DNA from: Eledone cirrhosa
Taxonomy: Eukaryota
Assembly: GCA_964016885.1 (NCBI GenBank)
Contig: OZ024746.1
Span: 3,596,001-3,660,000, forward strand
Length of the DNA stretch: 64,000 nucleotides
Direction: 5' to 3'
Positions 1,237-62,728 of the stretch are shown in pieces; positions within the stretch are counted from its first letter, which is position 1, and each line of letters begins with the position of its first letter. Both the position numbers and the translations under genes were made by a program. The notes beneath the pieces are model-generated. The model did not search any database and was not told where the DNA came from. It was given only the letters and a program-made list of their open reading frames with translations.

Positions 1237-1410
1237 GGCGGTAGATTGGCAGTATCGTAGAGGGTCGGACGCCATGCTTTTCAGCATAGAGTTACCTCCT
1301 TTTATGGTTTGAGTTCAAATCCAGACGAGGTTAACTTTGCTTTTCATCCTTACAGGGTCGATAAAATAAAGAACCATAATTGCTGACCTTGTGCTAAAAG
1401 TAGAAACAAT
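1237..1410 (+). mobile_element. SINE, same family
   Basis: A/B boxes and core present. Flanking direct repeat TTATTAAGTATTGTG. Confidence 0.85.
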
Positions 1411-2054
1411 TATTAAGTATTGTGAGGGAGATGGATTGGCAGTTACTGGATTGTGGTGCCCCAGCATGGCCACAGTCTAATGACCGAAACCAATAAAGAA
1501 ATAACAGATAATCTAATATAATAATTATAATGATTAGAAGTATAAACATTGTTTGAGGTTCTAGATCTAATCATTTATAATTATTATAATGTCACAATGC
1601 TTTCAAAAAACTGACCGAAACTCCTTTCACAATCCATTATCTAAAACTCTCGAGAATCTTCCCAGACAAGGAAACTGTATTCGTGTCAGTCAGAAAAAAT
1701 AAATTTTCAGGAAACACATGGTTGGAAAAGTTGTTCTCTTTCATAAGTAGACGAAGTCATTCAAATAGTTCTGTTTCCTGAGCCGTGTAAGATATTTACA
1801 ATGTACATACTGTGTATGAGAACATGAGAACTAGGAGCGGAATTATGTAATCTTCTATGTATACATGTATGTATGTATCTATCGTGATGGGGTCGTATGG
1901 GTGCCATGGTGACGTACGGTGTATTGGGAATTTTAACTCTGTCGAAGTCCAATCTTTCCCCAGGTCTGAACACAGTCAATTTTGTTATCGAGAGAGAGGG
2001 GAGAGAGTAAGAAAAAAGAGTGAGTGATAGAGAGAGGGAGGGTGGAGAGAGAGA

Positions 2055-2168
<114 letters not shown>

Positions 2169-2726
2169 GAAAAAAAGATACTCTGTAGAGAAAGAATCGA
2201 TCCTTATACTTGGCTGATTAATTTTAAAAGAATGAAAGGTAAAGTTGACCTGAGCGGGTTTGGAGCCCAGATCATAGAGAGCCAGAACAGATACTGTCAG
2301 ACATTCTCTCAGACATTCTCTCAAACATTCTATCAGACATTTTAAGAACTATGTCGCCTTAAACGTATATCTTAATTGATCTATTTTCTCTCTGAGCGGT
2401 TTTTGTTAAATTGATAGCGTTAAACAATTTCCGAGTATCTTCTATCTTTCTTGATCAAAATTAATTATTAATCTAGTTATCTTTTCTTCTTACTACGAGT
2501 CTAATATTAATTAATTAAAATATGTTTGAGTTACTATATTAAGTACGGTAGTGTCTAGTTTATTACCTGACTGTTGTGACTGGACTAATTTCTTTCGGTG
2601 TCGAAGATATTAAAACGAAGCTTCCATTAAAATTAGCTACAGTCACAGCCCAGTTATCTTGATAACAAAATATATATTTTTGTAGAATTAAGAGCAAATT
2701 GAGAACCACTATGTTGTCACATGATC

Positions 2727-2757
<31 letters not shown>

Positions 2758-3460
2758 CGATAACATGAGAACTAGGAGCGGAGTTATGTAATCTTGTATG
2801 TATGGATCAACAACCCCTGATGGAGTCGTATGGGTACCATAGTGACAAGAACGATAACAACAACAACAACACCTCCATCCTTAGAGATGGCACGAATCAA
2901 TTTCCATATTGATGTCCGTATTGGTGGTCAATACCATTCAATAACAGCCAGTAATGAAATAAAGTCAACACTGTGTCATAGTACGTCGGTGGTAATCTAC
3001 ACGAGTGAAGATTTTCATTTAGACGCCATTTTGCCTCCACCCAACCTGACTAAGGAAGAAGTCACTAACCTTATTTCTTGAAATAACAACGTCAGTTAAT
3101 CACTTGTTAATAGATATCTATCATCATGTAATATTCAAATGGTCGACTCTGTATTACTAGTCAGGTACAATGAATAATTATTTTATCTAAACAGATAATA
3201 GAATACTAAAGATCATACACCACCTGTATTATATTACCTGTAGAAAAATATTTTAAATGAACTACATTTGTCGCAGAACTAAAGTGAAATGTTCAGAAAT
3301 TTCTAGAATTTTCAGAGAAATAACTGATACAATACAATGAGATGAAATCTAACTGATTATGTTTGTATATTTGGAATATATTCATATCATTCTGTCGATC
3401 TGTCTACTTTTCTCTCTATCTATTTACACATCTGTGTATTTTTTCATTATATATATTCTT

Positions 3461-3601
3461 TATTATGGTCAAGTGATGAGTCTTGTTACTCTGGAGTTTC
3501 ACGTGTGTACTCACAAGAATCATCAGATAATTCTTGTCTATGATACTGTGAGTACACACGTGAAACTCCAGAATAACAAGACTCATCATTTGGCCATAAT
3601 A
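3461..3601. repeat. Fold-back inverted repeat with a degenerate hammerhead (probable PLE pLTR)
   Basis: ~54-bp arms. Plus strand reads CTTGT-CT(-)ATGA...GAAACTC.CA.GAAT-A-ACAAG. Confidence 0.6.
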
Positions 3602-3626
3602 TAGAATATCATTAATCTCTACACCG

Positions 3627-3811
3627 GGCGGTGGATTGGCAGTATCGGTAGAGGGTCGGGACGCCATGCTTTCCAGCATAGTTACGTCCCTTTAAGATCT
3701 GAGTTCAAATCCCACCGAGGTTGACTTTGCCTTTCATCCTTACGGGGTCGATAAAATAAAGTACCAGTAATGCACTGGGAAATTGCTGGCCTTGTGCCTA
3801 AAGTAGAAACA
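3627..3811 (+). mobile_element. tRNA-derived SINE with Nin-type core and a ~16-bp TSD
   Basis: A box TGGCAGTATCGG, B box GAGTTCAAATCC, core GCCTTTCATCCTTACGGGGTCGATAAA. TSD ATTAATCTCTACAYCG at 3611 and 3812. Confidence 0.88.
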
Positions 3812-3930
3812 ATTAATCTCTACATCGGTCAAAATCACATTGATATATATATATATATATATATACTGAACTTCTTATATACCAACACTGGATTTGAGTT
3901 CTCTAAGAGATGATAACGTGAACAGTCCTG

Positions 3931-4007
<77 letters not shown>

Positions 4008-4172
4008 TATGTTAAGGCATCAATACATATTAAAATGTATGGTGAACATGTTTCTCAATAAAAAAGCTCAATGGACCTTAGTTCAGAATATCAATTATTT
4101 TTATTTAAATTTAATAGATATATGAAGAGAGAAAGAAGCATATATCGTTTAAGAAACTCATACCATTTTGAA

Positions 4173-4316
<144 letters not shown>

Positions 4317-11225: not shown

Positions 11226-13123
11226 TGGTTATGGTGATGGTGGTGGTGGTCGTGATGGTGGTGGTGGGGGGGGGGGGGGGTCGTGATGGTGGGGGTGGTG
11301 ATGGTGGTGGTGGTCGTGATGGTGGTGGTGGTGGTGGTGGTGGTGGTGGAGGTGGTGGTCGTGATGGTGGTGGTGGTGGTGGTGGTGGTGATGGTGGTGG
11401 TGGAGGTGGTGGTCGTGATGGTGGTGGTGGTGGTGGTGGTGGTGGTATGGTGGTGATGGTGGTGGTGGTGGTGATGGTGGTGGTGGTGGTGGTGGTGGTG
11501 GTGATGGTGGGGGTGATGGTGGTGGTGGTGGTGGTAGTGGTGGTGGTGGTGACGGTGGTGGTGATGATGGTGATGGCGGTGATGATGGTGGTGGTGGTGA
11601 TGGTGGTGGTGATGGTGGTGGTGGTGGTGATGATGGTGGTGGTGGTGGTGGTGATGGTGATGGTGGTGGTGGTGGTGGTGGTGGTGGTGGTTATGGTGGT
11701 GATGGTGGTGGTGGTGGTGGTTATGGTGGTGGTGGTGATGGTCGTGATGGTGGTGATGGTCGTGATGGTGGTGGTGGTGGTGATAGTCGTGATGGTGGTG
11801 GTGGTGGTGATGGTTGAGGTGGTGGTGGTGGTGGTGGTGGTGGTGGTGGTGATGGTGGTGGTGGTGATGGTGGTGGTGATGGTGGTGGTGGTGGTGGTGG
11901 TGATGGTGGTGGTGGTGGTGGTGGTGGTGGTGGTGGTGGTGGTAGTGGTGGTGATGGTGGTGATGGTGGTGGTGGTGGTGATGGTGGTGGTGTTGGTGGT
12001 GGTGGTGGTGGTGATGGTGGTGGTGGTGGTGGTGGTGATGGTGGTGATGGTGGTGGTGGTGGTGGTGGTGGTGATGGTGGTGATGGTGGTGGTGGTGGTG
12101 ATGGTGATGGTGGTGATGGTGGTGGTGGTGGTGGTGGTGGTGATGGTGGTGGTGGTGGTGGTGGTGGTGGTGGTGATGGTGGTGGTGGTGGTGGTGGTGG
12201 TGGTGGTGGTGATGGTGGTGGTGGTGGTGGTGGTGGTGGTGATGGTGGTGGTGGTGGTGGTGGTGGTGGTGGTGATGGTGGTGGTGGTGGTGGTGGTGGT
12301 GGTGGTGATGGTGGTGGTGGTGGTGGTGGTGGTGGTGGTGATGGTGGTGGTGGTGGTGGTGATGGTGGTGGTGGTGGTGGTGGTGGTGATGGTGGTGGTG
12401 GTGGTGGTGATGGTGGTGGTGGTGGTGGTGGTGGTGGTGGTGATGGTGGTGGTGGTGGTGGTGGTGGTGGTGATGGTGGTGGTGGTGGTGGTGATGGTGG
12501 TGATGGTGGTGGTGTGGTGATGGTGGTGGTGGTGGTGGTGGTGGTGATGATGGTGGTGGTGGTGGTGGTGGTGGTGATGGTGGTGATGGTGGTGGTGGTG
12601 GTGATGGTGGTGGTGATGGTGGTGATGGTGGTGGTGGTGGTGGTGGTGGTGGTGGTGATGGTGGTGGTGGTGGTGGTGGTGGTGATGGTGGTGATGGTGG
12701 TGGTGGTGGTGATGGTGGTGGTGGTGGTGGTGGTGATGGTGGTGGTGGTGGTGGTGGTGGTGGTGATGGTGGTGATGGTGGTGGTGGTGGTGATGGTGGT
12801 GGTGATGGTGGTGATGGTGGTGGTGGTGGTGATGGTGGTGGTGATGGTGGTGATGGTGGTGGTGGTGGTGGTGGTGGTGGTGATGGTGGTGGTGGTGGTG
12901 GTGGTGGTGATGGTGGTGATGGTGGTGGTGGTGGTGGTGGTGGTGATGGTGGTGATGGTGGTAGTGGTGGTGATGGTGGTGGTGGTGGTGGTGATGGTGG
13001 TGATGGTGGTGGTGGTGGTGATGGTGGTGGTGATGGTGGTGATGGTGGTGGTGGTGGTGATGGTGGTGATGGTGGTGATGGTGGTGATGGTGGTGGTGGT
13101 GGTGGTGGTGGTGATGATGGTGA
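11226..13123. repeat. ~1.9-kb (GGT)n/(GAT) trinucleotide array
   Basis: Direct reading of the sequence. Confidence 0.98.
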
Positions 13124-21191: not shown

Positions 21192-21746
21192 TTATCTCTT
21201 TCTCTTAATTTCGAGTATATTTTTTTGACCGGCCACCTTCCTGGTGGCAAGGTTGTAAAAGAAAAGACATTGTCATCCCTTGAATCGCAAGAATATTTTG
21301 CTATCGCAAGAATATTTTGCTATCGCAGCCATTTGTAGACTATGAATTAGGGAGCTGCGCTCTTGTTCGCAAATCCAAGTTCAGTCATACTTTGGTCCAA
21401 GCGGGTTGGTATATAACTCGTAGCTCCAATAATGATGGGTATGAAGCTAAAGGTGTATCTTGGATACTGGATTTGTAAACTCCTCATCAATGGTCCGTAG
21501 CTGTCCTTCCCCTGTATTTTTCTGACAATGTTTACATCAAGTGGGCAGCTGATATCCACAACAGAACACGTTTTCAATGTGTGGTCCCAAACAACAATAT
21601 CAGGCCGGTTGTGCTTTAATTTGGTGGCAGTTTTTAATTTCAGGTTCCACCAGTATTCCTTAGTGCCATCTGTCTCAATATATTCTTCCTCGTTTGTTGT
21701 TAATTTTGTTGTCCGAAGTGCGTTCCAGATGGTTCTAGCTATCCCA
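21192..21746 (-). mobile_element. RLE family A 3' fragment
   Basis: Near-identical to 61845-62401 apart from a deletion/duplication near 21300. Flanked by (CATA)n on the element strand. Confidence 0.9.
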
Positions 21747-21804
21747 TGTATGTATGTATGTATGTATGTATGTATGTATGTATGTATGTATGTATGTATG
21801 TATG

Positions 21805-21855
<51 letters not shown>

Positions 21856-21862
<7 letters not shown>

Positions 21863-22362
21863 TAATTTCAGCGAGGTCGGATTTCGGTATACAAGGATGC
21901 AATTCACTTCTAGCACTCAACGCCATATTCCCAATGACAGGGGTGGCAGAGTATATTAATAGAGATGAAAATGCGAAGTTGAAGGTGTTAGAGTCCTGTA
22001 TTATTTGAGCTGTTATATATATATTTCAATGACGATAAACATGACGATAAACATTTCAATGACTTAAAAAAAATGTTTTTGCTTTGGTGGAATGGGGCGG
22101 ACGACCAAATCAAAAACATTTTTTTTTAGTCCGCTCCCTTCCAAATAAAATTGCCTCAGAACTGTTACTTCTGAAGAGATCACCATGTCTATCGTCATTG
22201 AAATATATATAACAGCTCAAATAATAAAGGACTCTAACACCTCCAACTTCGCATTTTTATCTCTATTAATATACTCTGCCACCCCTGTCATTGGGAATAT
22301 GGCGTTGAGTGCTAGAAGTGAATTGCATCCTTGTATACCGAAATCCGACCTCGCTGAAATTA

Positions 22363-22367
<5 letters not shown>
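21856..22367. repeat. Inverted repeat with ~190-bp arms and an inner hairpin (probable PLE pLTR)
   Basis: 21856-22050 is the reverse complement of ~22188-22367. A CTGAAGA...GAAATATAT motif lies at 22171-22215. Confidence 0.75.
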
Positions 22368-22442
<75 letters not shown>

Positions 22443-22496
22443 CATACATACATACATACATACATACATACATACATACATACATACATACATACA

Positions 22497-22945
22497 TGGT
22501 GGCTGCCAACTCGTTTTCGAGTATGGCCACTACTTTATATCCATGTAGGAGAACTCCTACCGATGCGCTGAACGAATGTGACTTTAGTCCAGCCAGCGAC
22601 TTGAAAACTCTGGTACAAACACTACACTTGTGACAATTATTGACCCATAGTGCTAGGCCCATGGTACCATGTGACGACAAGTGCAGAGAGATCTCCAGAT
22701 ATAAAGCAATGCCTGTGCCGTGAAGCTTTTATAGTGAGCAAAGGCACTGCACAAAGCCAGTCCCACTCTCTTAACCAAGATGATATTTACCAAAAAGAAG
22801 AACAAGTCAACATCATTGGATACCATTAGAGTTGCAGGTGTTATATCAGAGTTTTCCTTCTCCTAGAATTCTGCCTTGACAAAGGCTAAGGGGTCATCTC
22901 TCCCGGTGATTTTGGATGGCCATTGACTCTTAAGAGCTCCTTTGC
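22497..22945 (-). mobile_element. 5'-truncated copy of the RTE-derived element
   Basis: Reverse complement of ~55373-55823. (CATA)n on both sides. Confidence 0.7.
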
Positions 22946-23000
22946 CCATACATACATACATACATACATACATACATACATACATACATACATACATACA

Positions 23001-23207
23001 TGGGATAGCTAGAACCATCTGGAACGCACTTCGGACAACAAAATTAACAACAAACGAGGAAGAATATATTGAGACAGATGGCACTAAGGAATACTGGTGG
23101 AACCTGAAATTAAAAACTGCCACCAAATTAAAGCACAACCGGCCTGATATTGTTGTTTGGGACCACACATTGAAAACGTGTTCTGTTGTGGATATCAGCT
23201 GCCCACT
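23001..23207 (+). mobile_element. RLE family A fragment, inverted duplicate of 21540-21746
   Basis: Same 5' breakpoint (TGGGATAGC) and same private variants as the 21 kb copy. Confidence 0.88.
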
Positions 23208-26003: not shown

Positions 26004-26060
<57 letters not shown>

Positions 26061-26284
26061 CTCTATCAGTCGTGTGTCACTTCGCGGAGAAGTTTCCGTT
26101 AATTTATGTAAGGAAAAAACGTGAGTTTTTAGTTCAATTTTATATCATTGTGTAACTTGACCACCCGTCTGGACCTTCAGGTGGTGGGTCAACTCATTTT
26201 CGCCCCTTCAGGGGCGGAATATCCATTTAAAAAATTTTTCTCCATCGAATCTTGGAAAAAATATTGTAAAATTTTGATTACGTT

Positions 26285-28201
26285 ATGAACGCTGCGTCCA
26301 ACGATAATGGTGGTGGAGAGGCGGTAAGACTACAAAGCTCGCAGTCAACAACGTCTTCTTCACTAGATACTATAGAGATGGAAAGACAAAATGAAAATAA
26401 AAAAACGAATTCACATCCAAACAACACAAATGACACCAAACAGCTCAATGACAACAAAAATAACAGCAAAACCAATAATGATGATAAAAGCAACAATGAT
26501 AACAACAACAAAGAAAAAAATAATGACAACGCCAATAACACCAGCATCAAAGACAACAACAACACCAAGGAAAATACGGATGATACCAACATCGGTGACA
26601 ACAAGAATAACAACAAGAATAACAACAATAATGACAACACCACCAATACGGATTCCACAAAGAAACCAAAAATCTCCTTTGCGGAGAAAGTTCAAAAGAA
26701 AGAACAATTGATATATCTCGACATAACAAATGCTGAACACCTTTTAAAGGACGCTAAGAGATATGTCACCTTCGAAAAAAATGGTGCTTTCAGCATCAAT
26801 TCTCCGGTAGAAATTCGCAAGGAAACTGCTCTCAAAACGATAGTTTTTAGGACAGTTTCCAATTCTACCCGAAAACCAGTCCAATTGTCACAGAAAGATA
26901 TTGAACTGGTTTTCAAAGATTCAATGAATGATATTGCATTCATTCAAAGAAGCAAACTTTTTGGGAGTATTTCGGTACTGATGAAGGATCAATTGACGGC
27001 CCAAAATTACTCTGTGTCGCCAATTGTATCCAACCTGTACACCTTTTTCCCTACATACATGGGAAAAAGGACACAAAAGATCAGAATCACAAGTGTCACA
27101 CCAAAGGTGAACATATGGTGGATACTGTGCGGCTTCATCAATTTTGATGAAGACAGAATACTGTCAGTAGGCAAGTCCCCCAGAGATGTATTCAATGGGA
27201 CTAGCATTGAAGTTCTGGTGCAAATGAGCCCAGAGCGAATAGCTATGATCCCACAGCGTGTACTCCTGGACGGACTTACCTACATAAACCTTTCGGTTGA
27301 GGGTAGGCGGCCTTCATGTTACCATTGCTTTAGCAGGGGTCACCTGAGGGCTTCCTGTCCTAAACTAATGAACCAAAAAAAGGCTCTTCTGCCAACACCC
27401 ATCAAAACAACACAACCACCAACACCACCACTACAACAACAACACCAACACACAAAAATAACCACAACAAACACAGTCCCACCCAACCTCACTCCACCTA
27501 AAACCACTGCAAAATCACATACAGACACAACAGCTCCCCAAGACATACCCCTCCCCAATCACACAGACGATACAACAGATGAGGCTATCTCGCCATCACC
27601 CAGTGAAGACGAGGGAGAACCCCATCGCTCGAAAAGAAAGAAAAGACATCACAAAAGCAAAAAACCAGTAAACACTACCACAAACATACAACCACCAACA
27701 CAAACAACAAAAATATCACAAACAAAACCCCCACTTCCTGAAAACAAAATACCTACAACAAAACGAAAGCACACACAAGAACTACAGACAAAAACAAACA
27801 CAACACAAGAAAATTACACTTACACTTACATAAACACTGAAAACAAAACACTAATGGAGACCATTACGAACGACCCTTCGGTTTTCACCGAAGGGAAAAC
27901 TTTCGCCCACTCTATAAAAAATAGCAAAAAAATGAACCTAAAACTGATTAGGGTCCCTATACAAACTTATAGGTCCCTAAAAGAAACATTTGAGAAGGAT
28001 GTGGGGAATTCCTGCGTGAAACCACTCAACCGCGTCCTTCTCAAATGCCTCCCCACCCCAGACACCCCCATCCCACCAGACCCCACCCCACCAAACATCT
28101 GCGTCCCCACCCCACCGGAAACCACCACCCATCCAGACAACCCCTCCAACACCCCCATGGAAATCGTGCGGCCTGGTCCCCAGGAGGCGAAGGGTGAGTG
28201 A
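26285..28201 (+). CDS. Tx1 ORF1 (gag-like nucleic-acid-binding protein, 638 aa)
   Basis: Asn-rich N-terminus, SFAEKV motif, CX2CX4HX4C zinc knuckle (CYHCFSRGHLRASC) and Thr/Pro-rich C-terminus. Stop codon lies 33 nt before ORF2. Confidence 0.88.
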   Translation: MNAASNDNGGGEAVRLQSSQSTTSSSLDTIEMERQNENKKTNSHPNNTNDTKQLNDNKNNSKTNNDDKSNNDNNNKEKNNDNANNTSIKDNNNTKENTDDTNIGDNKNNNKNNNNNDNTTNTDSTKKPKISFAEKVQKKEQLIYLDITNAEHLLKDAKRYVTFEKNGAFSINSPVEIRKETALKTIVFRTVSNSTRKPVQLSQKDIELVFKDSMNDIAFIQRSKLFGSISVLMKDQLTAQNYSVSPIVSNLYTFFPTYMGKRTQKIRITSVTPKVNIWWILCGFINFDEDRILSVGKSPRDVFNGTSIEVLVQMSPERIAMIPQRVLLDGLTYINLSVEGRRPSCYHCFSRGHLRASCPKLMNQKKALLPTPIKTTQPPTPPLQQQHQHTKITTTNTVPPNLTPPKTTAKSHTDTTAPQDIPLPNHTDDTTDEAISPSPSEDEGEPHRSKRKKRHHKSKKPVNTTTNIQPPTQTTKISQTKPPLPENKIPTTKRKHTQELQTKTNTTQENYTYTYINTENKTLMETITNDPSVFTEGKTFAHSIKNSKKMNLKLIRVPIQTYRSLKETFEKDVGNSCVKPLNRVLLKCLPTPDTPIPPDPTPPNICVPTPPETTTHPDNPSNTPMEIVRPGPQEAKGE

Positions 28202-28234
28202 TCTCTTTTCCTCTTTTAACTTTTCAGCACCAAC

Positions 28235-31200
28235 ATGGCCAATATAAGAGTTGGATGTGTGAATGTACGCGGCCTGGGGATGCCCTGGAAACAGGGCAAA
28301 CTCTTAAACGACCTCAGGTCGCACAGTTTGGATGTGGTAGCCATTTGCGAGTCCAGGATCCACGGCGAGCGACAGCTGGCCCCCATCTTCGATGACTTTG
28401 AGATCTACGCATCTCTCTGTCAACCGGGGGGTGGGGGCGGAGTTGCCGTTTTGCTGCGGAAACACCTGGGCCTCGTAACACAGACGGTACATCTGGACCC
28501 GGAGGGTCGACTGGTGGTCCTAGACGTTGACGGTAGTGAAGGTGGAGCGTTCAGGCTGGTGGCCGCATATGCCCCATCCGGGACACCGCGGCCAGACTTC
28601 TTCAAACGTCTAGAGACTTTTCTGGGAACGTCCCGCTCCTTGCTTTTAGTGGGGGACTGGAATGGAATCCTAGATGCACGTTGGGACTATGTGGGAGCAT
28701 GTCCCGATAAAGGGGGGTGTAACAGCCTCAAACAGTTAATCGACCGATTTGACCTGGCCGATAGATATCGACTAGATTTTCCGACTGCGCCACTGTGGAC
28801 GTGGAGTAATCGTAGCGGAACATCTAGATCGTACCTAGATAGGGTTCTAGTTAGAAATAAGGATAGGGACATGTTAAGCTGTCCACAAATGTTCATGGTT
28901 GCCTATTCAGATCACAAACTAGTGACCTGCATGGCCAACCTTGATAGAACCCATAGACAAGGACCCGGCTACTGGAAGCTGAACTTGTCGTTACCGACAA
29001 GCAAAGCCTACAGTAGACGGATTAGCACTTTAGTTAAACAGCACTTGACAGGGGCCATTGTCAACAACAGATGGTGGTACTCTCTCAAGAGGGCAGTTAG
29101 ATTAGACTCGATAGTTTTTAGTAAAGAATTAGCGTTAGATAGAAATAGAACCGAGAAGGAACTGGTAGATAAAGTAGAAGAGGCAATTAGAAGTGGCAAC
29201 GTAGCCAGCGTGCTAGCAACGAGAACGGCCTTGGACCAGTTCTTCGACGCAAAGCACGAGGGCTGCGTTGTCAGAAGCAAAATACGTGCTCTGGGAAACG
29301 AGGGAGCCAAAGCTGTTAGCTGGGCCCGAGTGACGGAGGCAAAAAGTGGCAACAAGTCCACGATTCGGTCTTTGAAGGACCAAAACGGACGCGTGATACG
29401 TGAGCCGAAGCAGATGTGTGCGGCTTTTCAGCGGCACTTTGCTCGGCTGTTCGGGGGGAGCGGCGCGCCGGGAGAGGCTATGGATTTCGGTCCATACCTC
29501 GACGGCCTACCGCGACTCTCGGACAGCGAGGCGAAGTTCTGCGAAAAGCCGATTTCAGCCACTGAGATAGGGGACGCGCTGAGCCAATGCGGCAAACGCA
29601 AATCTCCAGGTCTCGACGGTCTACCCTACGAATTTTACGTAGCAATGCCGGACTTATTCTCCGGTCTCCTGGAAGCGGTCTACTGCAACTGGCAACAGAA
29701 CGGGAGAATTCCCAGTTCTGTAACCGGGGGCGTGGTCACACTAATCAGGAAGGACGAGAATAAGGGGGATGACATAGGCAACTTCCGGCCCATAACTCTG
29801 CTAAACACAGAGTTACAGATTTTGGCCAAGGTGTTGGCAAAGAGGCTGGCGCTTGTCGTCGAGAACCTGGTGGGAGAAGCGCAGACATGCGCGATCCCGA
29901 CCAGGTCCATACACGACAACCTCCACCTCATGCGATACATCATAGAGAGGGTAGGGTGTAAACCCGGCTTCGGTGGGGCCCTGATCAACTTGGATCAGTC
30001 TAAGGCTTTCGATAGGGTTGACCATCGTTACCTGGATGCGGTGCTCGAGGCGGCAGGCTTCGGACCCGTGTTCAGGGGCTGGATTGCTGCAATGCACAAC
30101 AGCAACATCTGCTCAAGGGTCAAGGTGAACGGTTACCTCTCGGAGCCGTTCCATATTACGCGATCCATTCGACAGGGATGCCCTCTCTCCTCCCTTCTGT
30201 ACGTACTGACTCTCGAGCCACTACTGCGGAAGCTGGAGCTATTGCAGGGCATCCCTCTGGAACCGGGACTGCGGAAAGCGGCGTCGGCCTACGCCGACGA
30301 CGTGACAGTAATGGTGTCGAGCGCCTCGCAAATCGAGGAAGTCGGCACCTTACTAAAGGAATACGAAAGTCTCACAGGAGCGAAGCTGAACCGGGACAAG
30401 TCCATCGGTTTGCAACTCGGATCGTGGAGAGGCAGACCGATGCCTTCCGATGGCGTCGTCGGACGCTGGACGGAAGGACCGGTAAAGCTGCTCGGGGTCT
30501 GGTTTGGTCCGGACCTCCAGGTGGAGAAGAACTGGAACGAAGTGACGGCCAAGGTGTTTGCACTCACCCAGAAGTGGGCCGAGTGCAAACTATCCTTGAA
30601 AGGTCGAGCGGAGGTGGCGAACACTTTTATAGCGTCCGCCATCTACTACCGCTTGACCGTCGTGCCTTGTCCAGCCAAAACGCTCGCCAAAATGGAGCGC
30701 GCCCTCTTCCGATTCCTTTGGAAGAGGCGGGCTCCTTTGGTAAGAAGATCCATCTGCTGCCAACACCCTTCTAACGGAGGGCTGGGGATGCCGTGGTTGA
30801 CGATGCGCAAACACGCGCTCAGGCTGCGGCATCTCTACGTATTCCTCACCGGACAACCGGTGTGGGCCCCGTTCGTGAGGCGAGCCTTCCCACGACTCGT
30901 CTCGCTGACCGAGCTGCAGTCCTGGGTCAAGCAGAGACCGAGGAAAATGGGCGACTGGCACATCGAATGTGCTCAGGCGCTCACAGCCCTCTGGCAGGCG
31001 GACCCGGCGATCAGTGGAGACTCCACTTCGTCATTCTATAGAGGGTTGGTCCGCAGCAAGTGCGACGACGCGCTCGGTGAAACTCTAGGCGTGGAGGAAG
31101 ATGAACTGGCCAGTCTGTTCGGTAGGACCTTCCGCCCGGGACCGATGGACAACTTCCAAAAGTCCCTGGCCTGGCAGTGCTACCGAGGAGCTCTACCAGT

Positions 31201-31672
31201 TCGAGACAAGCTCTACAGACATGGGCGCCCGGGCAGGGACCCTGCAAAAAAGATCTGTCCGAGGTGCGTGCGAGACGAAGAAACCGTCGCGCACGCATTC
31301 ATACACTGCCCGGGCGTCACTGACCTGTGGGGCTATGTAGAACGACTATTGTCGCGGGTGGGACCAATCCAGTTGACCACCGAGTCCATTGTCATGATCA
31401 AACCGCCACCCTCCTTCAAAAACGAAGGAGAGGCGGTTTTCCTTTGTGTGATAGCTATGGCGAAAGAGGTTGTATGGTGGACAAGGTTGAAAGGGCTGAG
31501 GTCAGACACCTTTCTCTCCGGCCAACAACTGATTCTTTTTTTCAAATACCACTTTGGAAGAAGAATCAGGATGGAGAGAGAGGTGCTGTACCCCAGCAAG
31601 TTTTATGAAAGGTGGGTGAAAGTGGCGAGAATGGCCCGAGTGAATGGGCCTTCTCTCTATATCAGCCTGTAG
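28235..31672 (+). CDS. Tx1 ORF2: AP-endonuclease, reverse transcriptase and C-terminal zinc finger (1145 aa)
   Basis: APE motifs NVRGL, CESR, GDWN, YLDR, SDH. RT motifs KSPGLDG, FRPITLLN, DQSKAFDRVDH, RQGCPLS, YADD. C-terminal CPRC-X8-H-X4-C. Confidence 0.96.
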   Translation: MANIRVGCVNVRGLGMPWKQGKLLNDLRSHSLDVVAICESRIHGERQLAPIFDDFEIYASLCQPGGGGGVAVLLRKHLGLVTQTVHLDPEGRLVVLDVDGSEGGAFRLVAAYAPSGTPRPDFFKRLETFLGTSRSLLLVGDWNGILDARWDYVGACPDKGGCNSLKQLIDRFDLADRYRLDFPTAPLWTWSNRSGTSRSYLDRVLVRNKDRDMLSCPQMFMVAYSDHKLVTCMANLDRTHRQGPGYWKLNLSLPTSKAYSRRISTLVKQHLTGAIVNNRWWYSLKRAVRLDSIVFSKELALDRNRTEKELVDKVEEAIRSGNVASVLATRTALDQFFDAKHEGCVVRSKIRALGNEGAKAVSWARVTEAKSGNKSTIRSLKDQNGRVIREPKQMCAAFQRHFARLFGGSGAPGEAMDFGPYLDGLPRLSDSEAKFCEKPISATEIGDALSQCGKRKSPGLDGLPYEFYVAMPDLFSGLLEAVYCNWQQNGRIPSSVTGGVVTLIRKDENKGDDIGNFRPITLLNTELQILAKVLAKRLALVVENLVGEAQTCAIPTRSIHDNLHLMRYIIERVGCKPGFGGALINLDQSKAFDRVDHRYLDAVLEAAGFGPVFRGWIAAMHNSNICSRVKVNGYLSEPFHITRSIRQGCPLSSLLYVLTLEPLLRKLELLQGIPLEPGLRKAASAYADDVTVMVSSASQIEEVGTLLKEYESLTGAKLNRDKSIGLQLGSWRGRPMPSDGVVGRWTEGPVKLLGVWFGPDLQVEKNWNEVTAKVFALTQKWAECKLSLKGRAEVANTFIASAIYYRLTVVPCPAKTLAKMERALFRFLWKRRAPLVRRSICCQHPSNGGLGMPWLTMRKHALRLRHLYVFLTGQPVWAPFVRRAFPRLVSLTELQSWVKQRPRKMGDWHIECAQALTALWQADPAISGDSTSSFYRGLVRSKCDDALGETLGVEEDELASLFGRTFRPGPMDNFQKSLAWQCYRGALPVRDKLYRHGRPGRDPAKKICPRCVRDEETVAHAFIHCPGVTDLWGYVERLLSRVGPIQLTTESIVMIKPPPSFKNEGEAVFLCVIAMAKEVVWWTRLKGLRSDTFLSGQQLILFFKYHFGRRIRMEREVLYPSKFYERWVKVARMARVNGPSLYISL

Positions 31673-31937
31673 GTTGAGGAAAAGGAGGAGGAGAGGAAAG
31701 GAGTACAAGCTCTTCGTACTCCTGGAGATGAGGGTTGCACATTTTTTTCGGGGGTCTGTGTTACCCATATAAACTGTCTCCCTCTATTGGGGAAAATCGA
31801 CTAACTTTTAAATTCCATCTGTGATAACATTTTACACGTTTTTATTGTATGTAAACTTCCCCCTTTGTATTTGTCCCCTTCTTTTGTGCCCCTGTGGCTA
31901 ATAAAGAAATATATCTATCTATCTATCTATCTATCTA

Positions 31938-52346: not shown

Positions 52347-52501
52347 AATGTTTTGTTCTGTTGATATATTGTATACACAGCAGTTGCGATGGCGTCATGT
52401 TGAATTACTGCCGATGTTTAAGGACAGAAACACAACTTATTTCTTACACATAATCTCACTTGTTTATTTAATATAACATTTTACTTATTGTAGTTTCACT
52501 G

Positions 52502-52538
52502 TACTACCACCACCACCACCACCACTACAACTACTACA

Positions 52539-52570
<32 letters not shown>

Positions 52571-52635
52571 TACCACCACTACTACTACCACTACTACCAC
52601 TACCACCACTACAACTACTACTACTACTACTACTA

Positions 52636-52681
<46 letters not shown>

Positions 52682-52712
52682 TACTACTACCACCACCACC
52701 ACCACCACTACA

Positions 52713-52744
<32 letters not shown>

Positions 52745-52788
52745 CACTACCACCACTACTACTACTACTACCACCACTACTACTACCA

Positions 52789-52840
<52 letters not shown>

Positions 52841-52925
52841 CACTACTACCACCACCACCACCACCACTACTACAACTACTACTACCACTACTACCACTAC
52901 TACCACCACCACTACTACTACTACG

Positions 52926-52994
<69 letters not shown>

Positions 52995-53552
52995 GCTGCT
53001 GTTGCTACTACTACCTCTGTTGCTACTACTACCACTACTTCTTGCTGCTGCTGTTGTTGCTGCTACTACTGTTGCTGCTGCTACTACTGCTGGTGTTGTT
53101 GCTTCTACTACCACTGCTGCTACTACTACTACTACTGCTGCTGCTGTTTCTACTACTACCACTGCTGCTACTACTACCATTACTACTGCTGCTACAACTG
53201 CTGCTGCTGCTGCTACTACTGCTACTACTATTATTATTGCTACTACTACTACTGCTACTGCTGCTACTACTACTACTATCACTACTGCTACTACTACTGC
53301 TGCTGCTGCTACTACTACTGCTGCTGCTACTATACTGCTGCTACTGCTACTACTACTATTATTACTGCTGCTACTACTACTACTATTACTGCTGCTACTA
53401 CTACTACTACTGCTGCTACTACTACTATTACTGCTACTACTACTACTACTACTACTACTGCCACTACTACCACCAGCACCACAACTACCACTACCACCAG
53501 CACCACAACTACTACTACTACCACCACAACTATTACTACCACTACCACCACA

Positions 53553-53593
<41 letters not shown>

Positions 53594-53701
53594 CACTACA
53601 ACTACTACTACCACTACCACCACAACTACTACTACCACTACCACCACAACTACTACTACTACCACTACCACCACGACCACTACAACCACCACCACCACCA
53701 C
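52502..53701. repeat. ~1.2-kb (CTA/CCA/CTG)n trinucleotide array
   Basis: Direct reading of the sequence. Confidence 0.97.
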
Positions 53702-54156
53702 CTGATAATCTAGAAGAAGTGGAGGCAAGGTTATATGTTACAACCTCAAGCCTGGTCGCTGTTCTAAACATATGTTTACAAAATGGCGATAAAAAATAAG
53801 CAAGTCTAACATTAGGGAGGTTTGTTATAAAGGTTGATGTCGAGGATGACGATGGCAGTTAGAGCTTTCATCTTTCTAGAACTCATTAATTCCAACAAAA
53901 TGCTTACAGACATATAAATACGTATCAGTATGGCTGAATTATCAAATTTTACCCGCAACCATACCCCTCACCCACATAACCGAACAACTCTTTAGAATGA
54001 TATTTCACAGCTGGAGATGATGATAGAGTCGTCTTGGTAAAATACACGAGTACCCTCTTTGTAAAAATACCCAAGTTTTCAGAAAAAAAAAAAAATTAAC
54101 GAGTTCCTCAGTGTGTAACTGACTTTTTGTACAATGAATTTATGAGAATTTCTCAC

Positions 54157-54185
<29 letters not shown>

Positions 54186-54190
<5 letters not shown>

Positions 54191-54478
54191 TCATCTTGGT
54201 TAAGAGAGTGGGACTGGCTTTGTGCAGTGCCTTTGCTCACTATAAAAGCTTCACGGCACAGGCATTGCTTTATATCTGGAGATCTCTCTGCACTTGTCGT
54301 CACATGGTACCATGGGCCCAGCACTATGTGTCAATAATTGTCACAAGTGTAGTGTTTGTACCAGAGTTTTCAAGTCGCTGGCTGGACTAAAAAGTCACAC
54401 TCGTTCAGCGCATCGGTAGGGGTTCTCCTACATGGATATAAAGTAGTGGCCGTACTCGAAAACGAGTTGGCAGCCACC
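54186..54478 (+). mobile_element. 5'-truncated copy of the RTE-derived element
   Basis: Matches the 3' half of 55218-55823. (TATG)n on both sides. Confidence 0.7.
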
Positions 54479-54505: not shown

Positions 54506-54650
54506 TTTTCTCTTTCTCTTAATTTCGAGTATATTTTTTTGACCGGCCACCTTCCTGGTGGCAAGGTTGTAAAAGAAAAGAAATTGTCATCCCTTGAATC
54601 GCAAGAATGTTTTGCATATTTTGAAGGTGCCAGCTATCGCAGCCATTTGT
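54506..54650 (-). mobile_element. RLE family A extreme 3' end
   Basis: Matches ~62258-62401. (TATG)n on both sides. Confidence 0.88.
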
Positions 54651-54715: not shown

Positions 54716-55192
54716 TTCTTCTGGTTTTATAATTCACAAATTGTTTCCCAATAGAGAGAGAGAGTCGGTTTCTAACATAGACACAAGATTCTCTCATTGG
54801 AATTTACACAACATCAACTAGGTAGATATGTATGTATGCATGCATGTGTAGATATGGATGTTATTGTATGAGTGGATGTGTATGTTTTGAGTTGTATGTG
54901 TGCATGTGTATATGCTTTCTATCTGTACATGTGTATATGCAGTTATTAGATGCAAAATTTTTGGTATGTTTTACATATCTTTACTGTTCCATTAATGGAT
55001 TGTACTTGTAATTTCCTAACTAGTTGTGTTCTTTCTGTTCATGTGAAGCCCAGCTTCTCAAGATTTGTATTGAGGCAGTTACTAACATACCCTAGTGCCC
55101 CAATAATCACAGGCATAAATCTGAAGATATAATCAGGGTGGAGTATCTGCAGATTTCTCATTAGTTCTGCATAAATAGTCTCCTTTTTGCTA
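54716..55192 (-). mobile_element. RLE family B 3' fragment
   Basis: Matches ~59878-60355. (TATG)n on both sides. Confidence 0.87.
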
Positions 55193-55217: not shown

Positions 55218-55823
55218 CAGAGCATCAGTTGGTGCTACTGGTAACATGTATCCCAGTACAACCTGTCTCATGGTCGGGTCGTTGGCGACTAAACTGGCAA
55301 CCCCACCAAGGTTTCTTGGTGAGGAGGGTGACTTTGGACATCCTGCAGGACTAAAAACAAAACCTGTCAAAGGGCAAAGGAGCTCTTAAGAGTCAATGGC
55401 CATCCAAAATCACTGGGAGAGATGACCCCTTAGCCTTTGTCAAGGCAGAATTCTAGGAGAAGGAAAACTCTGATATAACACCTGCAACCCTGATGGTATC
55501 CAATGATGTTGACTTGTTCTTCTTTTTGGTAAATATCATCTTGGGTAAGAGAGTGGGACTGGCTTTGTGCAGTGCCTTTGCTCACTATAAAAGCTTCACG
55601 GCACAGGCATTGCTTTATATCTGGAGATCTCTCTGCACTTGTCATCACATGGTACCATGGGCCCAGCACTATGTGTCAATAATTGTCACAAGTGTAGTGT
55701 TTGTACCAGAGTTTTCAAGTCGCTGGCTGGACTAAAAAGTCACACTCGTTCAGCGCATCGGTAGGGGTTCTCCTACATGGATATAAAGTAGTGGCCGTAC
55801 TCGAAAACGAGTTGGCAGCCACC
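55218..55823 (+). mobile_element. ~600-bp non-autonomous RTE-derived (bipartite) retroelement
   Basis: RTE-like 5' UTR, C-terminal C2H2 remnant [17 protein letters not shown], and an end at GGCAGCCACC followed by (TATG)n. Four copies in the window. Confidence 0.7.
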
Positions 55824-56345: not shown

Positions 56346-56943
56346 GTGTATGTATATGTATGTATGTATGTATATGTATATGTATGTATGTGTATGTATA
56401 TATATGTATATGTGTATGTATGTATGTATATATCTGTATATATATGTGTGTATATGTATGTGTGTATGTATATGTATATGTATGTATATGTATATATGTG
56501 TGTGTATGTATATGTGTGTATGTATATGTATATATGTGTGTATGTATGTATATATGTATGTATATGTATATGTGTGTGTATGTATATGTGTATGTATGTA
56601 TGTATGTGTATATGTTTGTATATGTATATATGTGTGTGTGTATGTATATATATGTGTATGTGTGTATGTATATATGTATGTATGTGTATATATATGTATG
56701 TATATATATGTATATGTGTATGTATATGTATGTGTGTATGTATGTGTATATATGTATATATGTATGTATGTGTATGTATGTATATGTATATATATGTATG
56801 TATGTGTATATATGTATGTATATATATATGTGTATATGTATATGTGTATATGTGTGTATGTATGTATATGTATGTGTTTGTATATGTGTATATATGTATG
56901 TATATGTATATATGTATGTATATATATCTATATATATATATGT
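55824..56943. repeat. ~1.1-kb degenerate (TATG/TA/TG)n array between two RTE-derived elements
   Basis: Direct reading of the sequence. Confidence 0.97.
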
Positions 56944-57548
56944 CAGGTCACCAGTTGGTGCTACTGGTAACATGTATCCCAGTACAACCTGTCTCATGGT
57001 CGGGTCGTTGGCGAATAAACTGGCAACCCCACCAAGATTTCTTGGTGAGGAGGGTGGCTTTGGACATCCTGCAGGACTAAAAACAAAACCTGTCAAAAGG
57101 CAAAGGGGCTCTTAAGAGGCAATAGCCATCCAAAATCACCGGGAGAGATGACCCCTTAGCCTTTGTCAAGGCAGAATTCTAGGAGAAGGAAAACTCTGAT
57201 ATAACACCTGCAACCCTGATGGTATCCAATGATGTTGAATTGTTCTTCTTTTTGGTAAATATCATCTTGGTTAAGAGAGTGGAATGGCTTTGTGCAGTGC
57301 CTTTGCTCACTAAAAAAGCTTCACAGCACAGGCATTGCTTTATATCTGGATATCTCTCTGCACTTGTCGTCACATGGTACCATGGGCCCAGCACTATGTG
57401 TCAATGATTGTCACAGGTGTAGTGTTTGTACCAGAGTTTTCAAGTCGCTAGCTGGACTAAAAAGTCACATTCGTTCAGCGCATTGGTAGGGGTTCTCCTA
57501 CATGGATATAAAGTAGTGGCCGTACTCGAAAACGAGTTGGCAGCCACC
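56944..57548 (+). mobile_element. Second full copy of the ~600-bp RTE-derived element
   Basis: Colinear with 55218-55823. Confidence 0.7.
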
Positions 57549-59237: not shown

Positions 59238-59726
59238 TAGTAATAATAAATGTGAAGACTAAAATCCAAAGAGGGCTCGATAAGGATAAATATATATCAA
59301 ATATATAAAAACCGTAGAGCAAATATTTATTAAAATAACAGATTAAAGTTTAAGCAAAGAATCGCTGCTTTCACCCTTAACGGGATCTTCAGAAGATCCC
59401 GTTAAGGTTGAAAGCAGCGATTCTTTGCTCAAACTTTAATCTGTTATTTTAATAAATATATATATATATTTCATACATACATACATGATGATGATGGCTG
59501 CAACTCGATTTAGAGTAATGCCATTGCTTGATACTTAAGCATGAGCATTACAGACGTGGCTGTTTAGACCTGCTAGGGGCTTGCCCATGGCCGGCAATAC
59601 CACATATCAAGCGATGCCTGGGCTTGACATTTTTTTAAAGTGAAGAAAGCTATTTTTGCACGGAGCCAATCCCACTTTCTAAACATCGAATGCATTTACC
59701 CACATACATACATCATACATATACAT

Positions 59727-60355
59727 AATATGAAAGAGTACTGGTGGAATGTTCCAGTAAAAACCTCAATAAAATGCAGGCATAACAGACCAAATATAAT
59801 GATATGGCACAGGGAAAAGAAGGCATGCACAGTAGTGGAAGTTAACTGCCCAACAGATGCCAATATAATATCAAAGATTAGCGAAAAGGAGAATATTTAT
59901 GCAGAACTAATGAGAAATCTACAGATACTCCACCCTGACTATACCTTCAGATCTATGCCTGTGATTATTGGGGCACTAGGGTATGTTAGTAACTGCCTCA
60001 ATACAAATCTTGAGAAGCTGGGCTTCACATGAACAGAAAGAACACAACTAGTTAGGAAATTACAAGTACAATCCATTAATGGAACAGTAAAAATATGTAA
60101 AACATTCCAAACATTTTGCATCTAATAACTGCATATACACATGTACAGATACAAAGCATATACACATACACACATACAACTCAAAACATACACATCCACA
60201 AATACAATAACATCCATATCTACACATACAGACATACATACATATCTACCTAGTTGATGTTGTGTAAATTCCAATGAGAGAGTCTTGTGTCTATGTTAGA
60301 AACCGACTCTCTCTCTCTATTGGGAAAACTTTGTGAAATTATAAAACCAGAAGAA
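59727..60355 (+). mobile_element. RLE LINE family B 3' portion (endonuclease domain and 3' UTR)
   Basis: EYWWNVPVKTSIKCRHNRPNIMIW...VEVNCP...KENIY...CKTF is homologous to family A, but the nucleotide sequence and 3' UTR differ. Flanked by CATA repeats. Confidence 0.87.
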
Positions 60356-60438
60356 CATACATACATACACACATACATACATACATATATACATACATAC
60401 ATACATACATACATACATACATACATACATACATACAT

Positions 60439-62401
60439 CAGGAAAAAACAACAAAGAATCGCAGAAACATGACTGTCGTGTGGCTGGACTATCAAAAAGC
60501 ATTTGATAGTGTACCTCATGGGTGGATTGTTAAGGCTTTACAGTTAGCTAAAGTCCCACAACCATTGGTAGCTGCTGTTGAACGCCTAACCAAGGACTGG
60601 TACACCAGTTTGATCCTTAGAGGTGAGAAGGAGCAGGTTAAGACTGATAAGATACATTACCAGAAGGGCATCTTTCAGGGTGATAGCTTGTCAGTGCTAC
60701 TCTTCGTTCTCTCACTGAATCCACTATCTTACCTACTCAGGAAACAAGGTGGACAAAGAAGTGGGACCAGAAGTATCTCCCATCTTTTCTTTGTTGATGA
60801 CCTGAAGTTGTATGGGCCAAATATCAATGACATCAAGAAACAATTGGACCTCATTACACAATTTTCAACCGACATCAAAATGAAATTTGGTGAGTCCAAG
60901 TGTGCATATTTGGCAGTAAAACGTGGAAGAGCTGTGCCCTCCTCTAGAAATCTAGAGATGAACGGCCTGACAATACAACCTCTGCAGTCAGGTGACAACT
61001 ACAGATATCTTGGACAGGATGAGAATGTCAGATATGATGGACCCATAAATAAGGAGAGAACCAGAACTGAATACCTCAGAAGAGTAAAGAAAATATGGTC
61101 ATCAGAACTGTCAGCATACAACAAATACATTGCCCACAATACTTATGCTGTGCCAATTCTAACGCCAACATTTGGCCTACTGAACTGGTCATTGCAAGAA
61201 CTAAGTGAGATGGATGTTAGAACTCGAAAACTTCTCAGTGTTACTGGGAACTTTAACATCAATGGTGATGTGGATAGGCTATACTTCTCACGCAAGGAAG
61301 ATGGCCGGGGTCTAAAATCAATATTAACAACATATGAGACCCGGATAGTGACACTGAAGCAACACCTTCAACAGAGGAAAAAGGTTGGCAACCATCTTGC
61401 CCAGGTTTATGACCATGAAAAAAGAAATATCATTAGAATAGCGACTGATCTGGAGGAGAGATATGGAATAAAGCCTGATATAAATCTCTCACCCAGAGAA
61501 ATCGGAAGATCCTATTCAATGTTCAAACAAGATAAAAAAATTGACCAATTTACAGAAAAAGTTGTGCATGGATACTTGAGGCGTAAAACACAGACCATAG
61601 AGGGGATAAACCACTCAAAAAGCCTGGCATGGAGTTCCGACAAGTTTATGACATCACACCTTGAGGGATATCTCTATGCAATACAGGAACAAGAACTCCC
61701 TACCAAATATCTGCTGCACAAAAGAGGAGGGCCAGCAGCTGACAATAAATGTAGGCTATGTAAAACATAGATCGAGGATGTAAGCCACATTGTTGCCAGC
61801 TGCGAAAGAATGTCATCTCGCTACTACCTCCCCATGAGACACGATGGGATAGCTAGAACCATCTGGAACGCACTTCGGAAAACAAAATTAACAACAAACG
61901 AGGAAGAATATATTGAGACAGATGGCACTAAGGAATACTGGTGGAACCTGAAAATAAAAACTGCCACCAAATTAAAGCACAACCGGCCTGATATTGTAGT
62001 TTGGGACCACACATTGAAAACGTGTTCTGTTGTGGAGATCAGCTGCCCACTTGATGTAAACGTTGTCAGAAAAATACAGGAGAAGGAGGACATCTACGGA
62101 CCATTGATGAGGAGTTTACAAATCCAGTATCCAAGATACACCTTTAGCTTCATACCCATCATTATTGGTGCTACGGGTTATATACCAACCCGCTTGGACC
62201 AAAGTATGACTGAACTTGGATTTGTGGACAAAAAGCGCAGCTCCCTAATTCATAGTCTACAAATGGCTGCGATAGCTGGCACCTTCAAAATTTGCAAAAC
62301 ATTCTTGCGATTCAAGGGATGACAATTTCTTTTCTTTTACAACCTTGCCACCAGGAAGGTGGCCGGTCAAAAAAATATACTCGAAATTAAGAGAAAGAGA
62401 A
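60439..62401 (+). mobile_element. 5'-truncated R4/Dong-clade RLE non-LTR retrotransposon (family A) in (CATA)n
   Basis: RT, CCHC and PD-(D/E)xK domains with an ~80-nt 3' UTR. (CATA)n lies immediately on both sides. Confidence 0.9.
60469..62322 (+). pseudogene. RT-CCHC-RLE ORF of family A, interrupted by one in-frame TAG (61768-61770)
   Basis: RT motifs DYQKAFDSVPH, GIFQGDSLS, SHLFFVDDLKLY, YRYLG. CRLC-X8-H-X4-C spans the stop, followed by RHD and HNRPDIVVWD...EISCP...K. ORFs 60469-61770 and 61810-62322 share one frame. Confidence 0.92.
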
Positions 62402-62728
62402 CACATACATACATACATACATACATTCACGCATACATACATACATACATGCATACATACATACATACATACATACATACATACATACATACATACACAC
62501 ATACATACATACATACTGCGTTATTATATCCAAACTATCTGACGTTTTAGGCGTCTGTGAAACTTTAATAATGCATACCTCAGTCAAACTGTTAATAATA
62601 CTATTTAACATCCACATCATGTTGAATGATCTAATCTTTCATGTATACATCCTATTCACTCATCCACTTATTCGCTCTGTCTCCGGACACACACATATGT
62701 ATTATGTGTGTATATACATATATATATG

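What the first reader, a model, noticed from the sequence alone, without database searches (positions are those of the whole stretch)
59727..62515. Two R4/Dong-type RLE retrotransposon families appear to target (CATA)n with fixed orientation and phase
Seen: all six RLE pieces (21192-21746, 23001-23207, 54506-54650, 54716-55192, 59727-60355, 60439-62401; five independent insertions) have CATA repeats at the 5' junction on the element strand. The five with intact 3' ends read ...AA|CA(CA)TAC. None sits in the more abundant (TA)n, (CA)n or (AG)n tracts. Known: RLE-encoding R4-clade elements can be sequence-specific (R4 in rDNA, Dong in TAA repeats). Inference: this is a (CATA)n-specific lineage with two diverged families. 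I do not recall such a target being described. The family A ORF is intact from mid-RT to the end except for one stop, so a working site-specific integrase may be reconstructable.
Basis: partly seen in the sequence, partly recalled or inferred. Interest (0 to 1): 0.8.

Follow-up and report, generated by a model that had tools for sequence, protein, structure and literature searches.

The report
CATA-repeat-targeting Dong retrotransposons
Two families of R4/Dong retrotransposons in this octopus-like genome sit almost only inside (CATA)n microsatellites, in one orientation, and so likely target that repeat instead of the (TAA)n used by known Dong elements; one family is young and has intact copies that could be tested.

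Summary
In copies from 21-22 contigs, (CATA)n lies directly upstream of 50/62 5'-truncated and 20/22 full-length family A copies and 49/65 and 13/15 family B copies. It follows 82/90 and 57/60 3' ends. Background is 0.54%, and the reverse orientation occurs at 1 of 314 junctions. The arrays look pre-existing rather than tails: truncation points are scattered, 5' junctions show excess microhomology, array purity correlates across an insertion, and 3' arrays can be very short. No orthologous empty site was found. Family A is 4.2 kb with one 1169-aa ORF (Myb-like N-terminus, RT, CCHC, restriction-like nuclease). Intact natural copies exist, so nothing needs reconstructing. A and B form a distinct branch among TAA-flanked R4/Dong proteins. 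Novelty is limited: Dong-R4 is an annotated octopus family and ACAY repeats are a published target of the unrelated Waldo (R1) elements. I found no report of CATA as an R4/Dong target in ten library searches; Repbase could not be checked. Also seen: the window's Tx1-like LINE is (TATC)n-specific. Verdict: new target variant of a known kind.

The parts
60438..62401 (+). Family A copy, 5'-truncated (nt 2259-4222 of the 4224-nt element): RT from mid-domain, CCHC knuckle, RLE, 3' UTR; one in-frame stop at 61768-61770; ORF ends 62322
   Evidence: 99.6% to full-length copy L066; Pfam RVT_1; ORFs
59714..60355 (+). Family B copy, 5'-truncated (nt 3457-4088 of 4088): RLE-coding end and 3' UTR, ends ...CCAGAAGAA|CATAC
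60355..60438 (+). (CATA)n array between the B and A copies
62401..62516 (+). (CATA)n array downstream of the A copy
59701..59713 (+). Short CATA array (about 13 nt) upstream of the B copy
21192..21747 (-). Family A 3' fragment (nt 3665-4224), older variant ending GAGATAA|CATAC
   Evidence: 93.8% to L066
21746..21857 (-). (CATA)n/(TA)n array upstream of that fragment
23000..23207 (+). Family A fragment (nt 3665-3872); inverted duplicate of the 21.7-kb copy, 3' end lost
22498..22947 (-). Element X (609-nt non-autonomous repeat, likely RTE-type), 5'-truncated, inside the CATA array of this arm only, opposite orientation
54506..54650 (-). Family A 3' tip (nt 4080-4224)
   Evidence: 98.6%
54716..55192 (-). 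Family B 3' fragment, stacked upstream of the A tip in the same array and orientation
55223..55823 (+). Element X, near full length, bordering the array upstream of the B fragment
54184..54478 (+). Element X, 5'-truncated, bordering the array downstream of the A tip

Best explanation
Families A and B are R4/Dong-clade non-LTR retrotransposons that lie inside (CATA)n microsatellites in one orientation and likely insert site-specifically into arrays that were already there. Shown: single-ORF anatomy, junction statistics, orientation, 3' phase, stacking of A and B in the same arrays. Inferred from R2-type target-primed reverse transcription: the protein binds the array (the Myb-like N-terminal domain is the likely reader); the restriction-like nuclease nicks the (TATG)n strand in a fixed register; the freed 3' end primes reverse transcription at the RNA 3' end (...GAGAAAA or ...AGAAGAA, perhaps helped by a few CAUA bases); and the cDNA end, full or truncated, anneals by 1-4 nt of microhomology to the upstream CATA strand. 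Each insertion splits an array and leaves two usable targets, hence the stacks. The target is likely derived from the (TAA)n target of classical Dong elements.
For: CATA upstream of 44 of 55 distinct A truncation points (nt 595-4087) and 42 of 55 B points; an RNA tail cannot supply sequence there. Reverse orientation at 1 of 314 junctions; background 0.54%. 5' microhomology averages 1.9 nt (A, n=37) and 3.0 nt (B, n=36) against 0.42 expected. TA-richness of the 5' and 3' arrays correlates (Spearman 0.53, p=1e-4, n=47). In A the 5' array is longer than the 3' array (median 95 vs 39 nt, n=69, p=3e-4); 8 of 69 have 12 nt or less downstream and all 8 have 40 nt or more upstream. Control: a Tx1-like LINE of the same genome has CATA at 0 of 25 5' and 0 of 32 3' junctions. 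The same 3' junction is seen in a run of another organism label (X3: 48 contigs continue CATACATAC). Domains: RVT_1 and zf-RVT; best structural matches are R2 proteins; the N-terminal three-helix domain matches mostly Myb/SANT folds at Z 5-6. Relatives outside the A/B branch end in (TAA)n rotations in 16 of 43 loci and never in CATA.
Against: No orthologous empty allele was seen, so pre-existence is inferred. 12 of 62 A and 16 of 65 B truncated junctions lack the 8-mer; some are gaps, internal deletions or degenerate arrays, others are plain sequence. The array-length asymmetry is absent in B (60 vs 51 nt, n=53, p=0.35). Samples are the best-scoring copies, so they are biased to young ones, and include tandem duplicates. 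The few upstream loose ends listed for other organisms did not show CATA (1508 rows not shown). The Myb match is below Z 8 and has no sequence-level support. No biochemical test.
Confidence: 0.85

Rival explanations
1. Targeting is real but set by RNA-DNA pairing, not by the protein: transcripts run into the downstream array, and the (CAUA)n tail anneals to any nick in a (TATG)n strand.
For: The 3' junction begins with C in 86 of 90 A copies even where the array is TA-rich, as a templated CATA would give. Element X has a comparable pattern in (TA)n/(TATG)n.
Against: The end of the unique sequence is very constant (GAGAAAA 76, GAGATAA 8 of 90) and some 3' flanks hold 6-12 nt of repeat only. RLE elements are mostly protein-targeted (PMC4640811 passage).
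Confidence: 0.25
2. The elements make the arrays themselves: insertion at a short CATA seed, a tail at the 3' end, slippage or template jumps to tail RNA at the 5' end, then expansion.
For: At L069 a full-length A copy sits in another A copy next to an internal TATACA with only 18 nt of repeat upstream. No empty site was seen.
Against: 5' and 3' arrays share their local impurity; copies over 99% identical already have long, degenerate upstream arrays of up to several hundred nt; arrays between the same mobile-element ends occur with and without a Dong copy inside.
Confidence: 0.1
3. Insertion is unspecific and copies merely survive or accumulate in microsatellite-rich regions.
For: The genome is microsatellite-rich (about 8% of background 20-mers).
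Against: Strict orientation and phase; the commoner (TA)n is almost unused; the Tx1-like control uses a different repeat.
Confidence: 0.02

Closest known systems
Dong elements of the R4 clade (Dong of Bombyx mori, DongAg, DongBg, Darwinula Dong1/2)
   Same: Single ORF with N-terminal Myb/SANT-like domain, RT and C-terminal RLE; insertion into a microsatellite; 33-41% RT identity to Bombyx, Pediculus and Sitophilus proteins, species used in a published R4/Dong alignment.
   Different: Published target is (TAA)n in insects, molluscs and cnidarians; here (CATA)n. A and B lie on a separate long branch (SH-aLRT 100). No clear HDV-like 5' ribozyme was found.
Octopus 'Dong-R4' LINE families (O. vulgaris and O. 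bimaculoides repeat annotations)
   Same: Same superfamily label. Recently active O. vulgaris copies average 4.19 kb (1129 insertions, 4,732,901 bp), matching the 4.22 and 4.09 kb of A and B.
   Different: No target site in the passages and supplement searched. Sequence identity with those library entries could not be tested.
Waldo elements (WaldoAg1, WaldoAg2, WaldoFs1; R1 clade)
   Same: Published target ACAY includes (ACAT)n, the same repeat as (CATA)n.
   Different: APE-type endonuclease, arthropod hosts, unrelated clade; the shared target would be convergent.
R2 retrotransposons
   Same: RT-CCHC-RLE fold; top Foldseek matches (E 1e-36 to 1e-28).
   Different: Only 16-20% identity; rDNA target; N-terminal zinc fingers, which A lacks.

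Membership tests
R4/Dong clade | Single ORF: RT followed by CCHC knuckle and restriction-like endonuclease, no APE | tested here: met
   1169-aa ORF; RVT_1 475-726 and zf-RVT 934-999; conserved C-x2-C...H...C and (R/K)PD...(E/D) columns in alignment A2 (their reading as RLE motifs is recalled); fold matches R2
R4/Dong clade | N-terminal Myb/SANT-like domain without zinc fingers | tested here: inconclusive
   Three-helix model, pLDDT 89; best VIA match Zeste DNA-binding domain Z 6.1, rmsd 2.5, 63 aligned, list dominated by Myb/SANT domains but all under Z 8; no Pfam or PDB sequence hit; no N-terminal C2H2 motif seen
R4/Dong clade | RT phylogeny groups with R4/Dong | tested here: met
   A and B fall among insect Dong-like and TAA-flanked proteins at 33-41% RT identity, against 16-20% for R2. 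Caveat: named R4, Dong, Rex6, Hero and NeSL references were not available and the only outgroup is a distant Tx1
Dong subgroup in the strict sense | Insertion into (TAA)n | tested here: not met
   Junctions are (CATA)n
R4/Dong clade | HDV-like self-cleaving ribozyme at the 5' end | tested here: inconclusive
   No Rfam match; own descriptor gave one weak fit in A (2 of 40 shuffles as good) and none in B; full-length 5' ends are nevertheless fixed
Target-specific retrotransposon (more than 20% of flanks of one type, criterion in PMC4494074) | One sequence type at the flanks of over 20% of copies | tested here: met
   75-95% at both ends
Target-specific retrotransposon | Sequence-specific cleavage and target-primed reverse transcription by the protein | not testable with these tools
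   Needs purified protein
Waldo / R1 clade | N-terminal APE endonuclease | tested here: not met
   No Exo_endo_phos hit in the full A protein

The most novel reading that the evidence does not exclude
A and B belong to an undescribed branch of R4/Dong that switched from 3-nt (TAA)n to 4-nt targets: (CATA)n in octopods and possibly (CTTA)n in another host (one contig, L172). In this genome three unrelated retroelement lineages divide the microsatellites among them by sequence and strand: Dong in (CATA)n, a Tx1-like LINE in (TATC)n, and an RTE-like repeat in (TA)n/(TATG)n. Intact young copies make the period switch testable by swapping the Myb and RLE domains.
Probability: 0.4. Interest if true: 0.62.

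Novelty: new variant of a known kind. Interest (0 to 1): 0.45.

Why it matters
It gives a natural pair, TAA-Dong and CATA-Dong, for asking how an RLE retrotransposon changes its target; this has been studied mainly in R2. Intact 99%-identical copies make the test direct. For cephalopod genomics, a very abundant LINE class (92.7 Mb labelled Dong-R4 in O. vulgaris) would be confined to microsatellites. That keeps it out of coding sequence and would make short-read insertion callers miss it, which may explain the published null result for Dong activity in O. bimaculoides (my inference). CATA markers in these animals would be unreliable. It is not a new mechanism.

Tried and rejected
Empty alleles: flank-versus-flank comparison in about 1 Mb of fetched loci and two flank searches of the genome found no paralogous empty site; read-level testing of the window locus was not obtained. 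Targets of close relatives: scans of prokaryote and viral contigs found no relative; the metagenome scan gave only 3 loci of the A/B branch, 2 reaching the 3' end. Runs X1, X8 and X9 did not show the 3' flank. DNA search with the Tx1 3' end returned nothing; a protein query worked. The Tx1 element was meant as a neutral control and proved to be target-specific itself. ESM Atlas on residues 1-340: best score 0.89, unnamed. Foldseek on the N-terminal domain: nothing at E<=0.001. HDV ribozyme: inconclusive. Target-site duplication length cannot be read inside perfect repeats; short 3' flanks limit it to about 6-9 nt in a few copies. Literature: ten searches; (CATA/TATG/ATAC/ACAT repeats with non-LTR retrotransposon) returned 0 papers. 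Not held: the 2025 STITCHR survey, Biedler 2015 and Xiong and Eickbush 1993. Repbase Reports and the Kojima and Fujiwara 2003/2004 texts were not seen, so an existing annotation cannot be excluded. Earlier scan notes: none.

Full report
Setting. The window is G000:C6:3596001-3660000 in a 3.0-Gb animal genome. The closest named protein relatives of the element are from Argonauta hians (65-66% RT identity), so the host is likely an octopod; this is inference.

Observation. BLAST of the two pieces against the window recovers exactly the six fragments named, on the strands named, each with CATA repeats upstream on the element strand. The pieces at 21.2-21.7 kb and 23.0-23.2 kb are arms of one inverted duplication, which leaves five insertions. 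The B piece starts about 13 nt earlier than stated and its upstream array is short.

Genome-wide test. I searched the genome with tail-free parts of A and B (1112-2507 candidates each, best 40 scored). I used the 60 loci returned, stretches around 39 of the 40 matches and 20 of the 40, and three longer B stretches. Junctions were defined by alignment to natural full-length copies (A: L066, 4224 nt; B: L137, 4088 nt) and counted once per genomic place. A perfect 8-nt CATA rotation within 16 nt was found upstream of 50/62 truncated and 20/22 full-length A copies and of 49/65 and 13/15 B copies, and downstream of 82/90 and 57/60 3' ends. The reverse orientation occurred once in 314 junctions. Background is 0.54% of 99,840 16-mers. 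Counting each truncation point once gives 44/55 and 42/55; for A copies at 98% identity or more it is 40/46. Pure (TA)8 is 3.4 times commoner in the background and appears at 1 of 314 junctions. The first base after the element is C in 86/90 A and 51/60 B copies. Of the 12 A misses, one is an assembly gap, two abut element-derived sequence and three are degenerate CATA arrays; the other six have no CATA array. The sample favours young copies and contains some tandem duplicates.

Target or tail. The fixed 3' phase alone would also fit a templated tail. Four results favour a pre-existing array. Truncation points spread over 3.5 kb abut CATA. The element's first bases continue the array more often than chance (mean 1.9 nt in 37 A and 3.0 nt in 36 B junctions with a perfect upstream phase, 0.42 expected). 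TA-richness upstream predicts TA-richness downstream (rho 0.53, n=47 insertions with 40 nt or more on both sides). In A the upstream array is longer, and 8 of 69 copies have 12 nt or less downstream (all); B shows no such asymmetry. A true empty allele was not found. In run X3, of another organism label, 48 contigs continue the 3' end with CATACATAC; three other runs were uninformative and upstream junctions were not confirmed there.

The elements. A has a 633-nt 5' UTR and one 1169-aa ORF. Five of 37 fetched loci and 14 of 150 listed matches have the full open frame, and most copies are 98-99.7% identical, so A is young. B is older (about 96% between copies) with no whole ORF in 20 loci. The proteins are 46-51% identical. 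Pfam gives RVT_1 and zf-RVT. The model (pLDDT 87) matches R2 proteins best. The N-terminal 68 residues form three helices whose best matches are Myb/SANT-type domains at Z 5-6, which is suggestive only but agrees with the Myb-like domain reported for R4/Dong (PMC7998251, passages).

Relatives. In RT trees of 70 rows, A and B lie in a 37-row branch (SH-aLRT 100) of mostly unnamed proteins, joined to Bombyx, Euphydryas, Pediculus, Sitophilus, Tribolium and TAA-flanked metagenome elements. A groups with Argonauta and B lies elsewhere in the branch. The root rests on one distant Tx1 row. Of the 80 metagenome loci, 45 reach the ORF end: among 43 outside the A/B branch the first downstream repeat is a TAA rotation in 16, another repeat in 13, none in 14, never CATA; of 2 inside it, one ends in (CTTA)n and one shows no repeat. 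(TAA)n is therefore the likely ancestral target.

Neighbours. Of 122 insertions with both flanks, 32 have another A or B copy directly upstream and 36 downstream, always on the same strand; 35 and 23 have element X, always on the opposite strand. X is a 609-nt repeat with a C2H2 remnant (RTE-type by recalled features, not tested). Sampled on its own it sits in (TA)n and (TATG)n arrays (TATG 8-mer at 11/41 5' and 15/38 3' junctions). The window's Tx1-like LINE has (CTAT)n at 23/25 5' and 29/32 3' junctions and CATA at none. Repeat adjacency is thus family-specific and not a general property of this assembly.

Mechanism. See Best explanation. Binding by the Myb-like domain, nicking by the RLE and priming are inferred from R2 biology. 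Whether protein or RNA tail sets the specificity is open.

Known work (passages only unless stated). Dong targets TAA; Waldo targets ACAY; Mino AC; Kibi TC; Koshi TTC (PMC3812793). Togen targets (TG)n and some HERO families target microsatellites (PMC4640811). Crocodilian Tx1 families prefer (TTCC)n or (TTTC)n (PMC4494074). Dong has a 5' HDV-like ribozyme (PMC3774820). Octopus Dong-R4 is annotated as abundant and recently active; 'target' has 0 occurrences in that paper's main text and supplement (PMC13282606). PMC9115989 and PMC8967140 mention Dong without a target. PMC13708176 and PMC13580325 gave background on RLE clades and the STITCHR survey only. Ten searches found no CATA-targeting R4/Dong, but the library lacks Repbase Reports and several key papers, whose supplements may list such a family.

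Verdict. Real and well supported. A new target variant of a known clade, convergent with Waldo. Interest 0.45.

Noticed in passing
window 26004-31937 (+); loci L251-L280: Full-length two-ORF Tx1/L1-type LINE (APE, RT, zf-RVT; intact 1150-codon ORF2) between (CTAT)n arrays. Genomic copies have (CTAT)n at 23 of 25 5' and 29 of 32 3' junctions, 3' end ...AAAGAAA|TATATCTA. A (TATC)n/(GATA)n-specific Tx1 was not among the targets in the papers I read; 50,705 first-look candidates. Deserves its own follow-up.
   Followed up: partly
window 22498-22947, 54184-54478, 55223-55823, 56942-57548; loci L141-L170: Element X, a 609-nt non-autonomous repeat with a C2H2 finger remnant, inserts in (TA)n/(TATG)n with junctions TAT|GTCAGG...GCCACC|ATRT. 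Several related 3' ends occur. Its autonomous partner was not found.
   Followed up: partly
L172:4651-4694: A metagenome relative inside the A/B branch has a 1.06-kb 3' UTR ending ...AAAAG|(CTTA)n: possibly a second tetranucleotide target; one contig, 3' end only.
   Followed up: partly
L075, L076 (G000:C2:248.45-248.47 Mb): Head-to-tail run of family A copies, three of them truncated at the same point (nt 1168) and spaced 3.09 kb apart, separated by short CATA arrays: likely tandem amplification after insertion.
   Followed up: no
L005, L061 (G000:C14:37.85 Mb): Short pieces of the B 5' UTR and the A 3' tip repeated in tandem with CATA spacers, satellite-like.
   Followed up: no
window 59326-59460: Near-perfect palindrome of about 130 nt (hairpin) upstream of the finding.
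   Followed up: no
window 21192-23207: Inverted duplication that includes the A fragment and its array; element X is present in one arm only, a filled/empty pair for X.
   Followed up: yes
window 11232-13122 and about 52490-53710: Very long trinucleotide-based arrays: (TGG/TGA)n of 1.9 kb and (CTA/CCA)n of about 1.2 kb.
   Followed up: no
L208, L211, L213, L222, L229, L236, L247: Dong-like relatives in metagenome contigs whose first downstream repeat is (GAT)n, (CAA)n, (AAG)n or (AGG)n, often grading into (TAA)n: looser trinucleotide targets.
   Followed up: no
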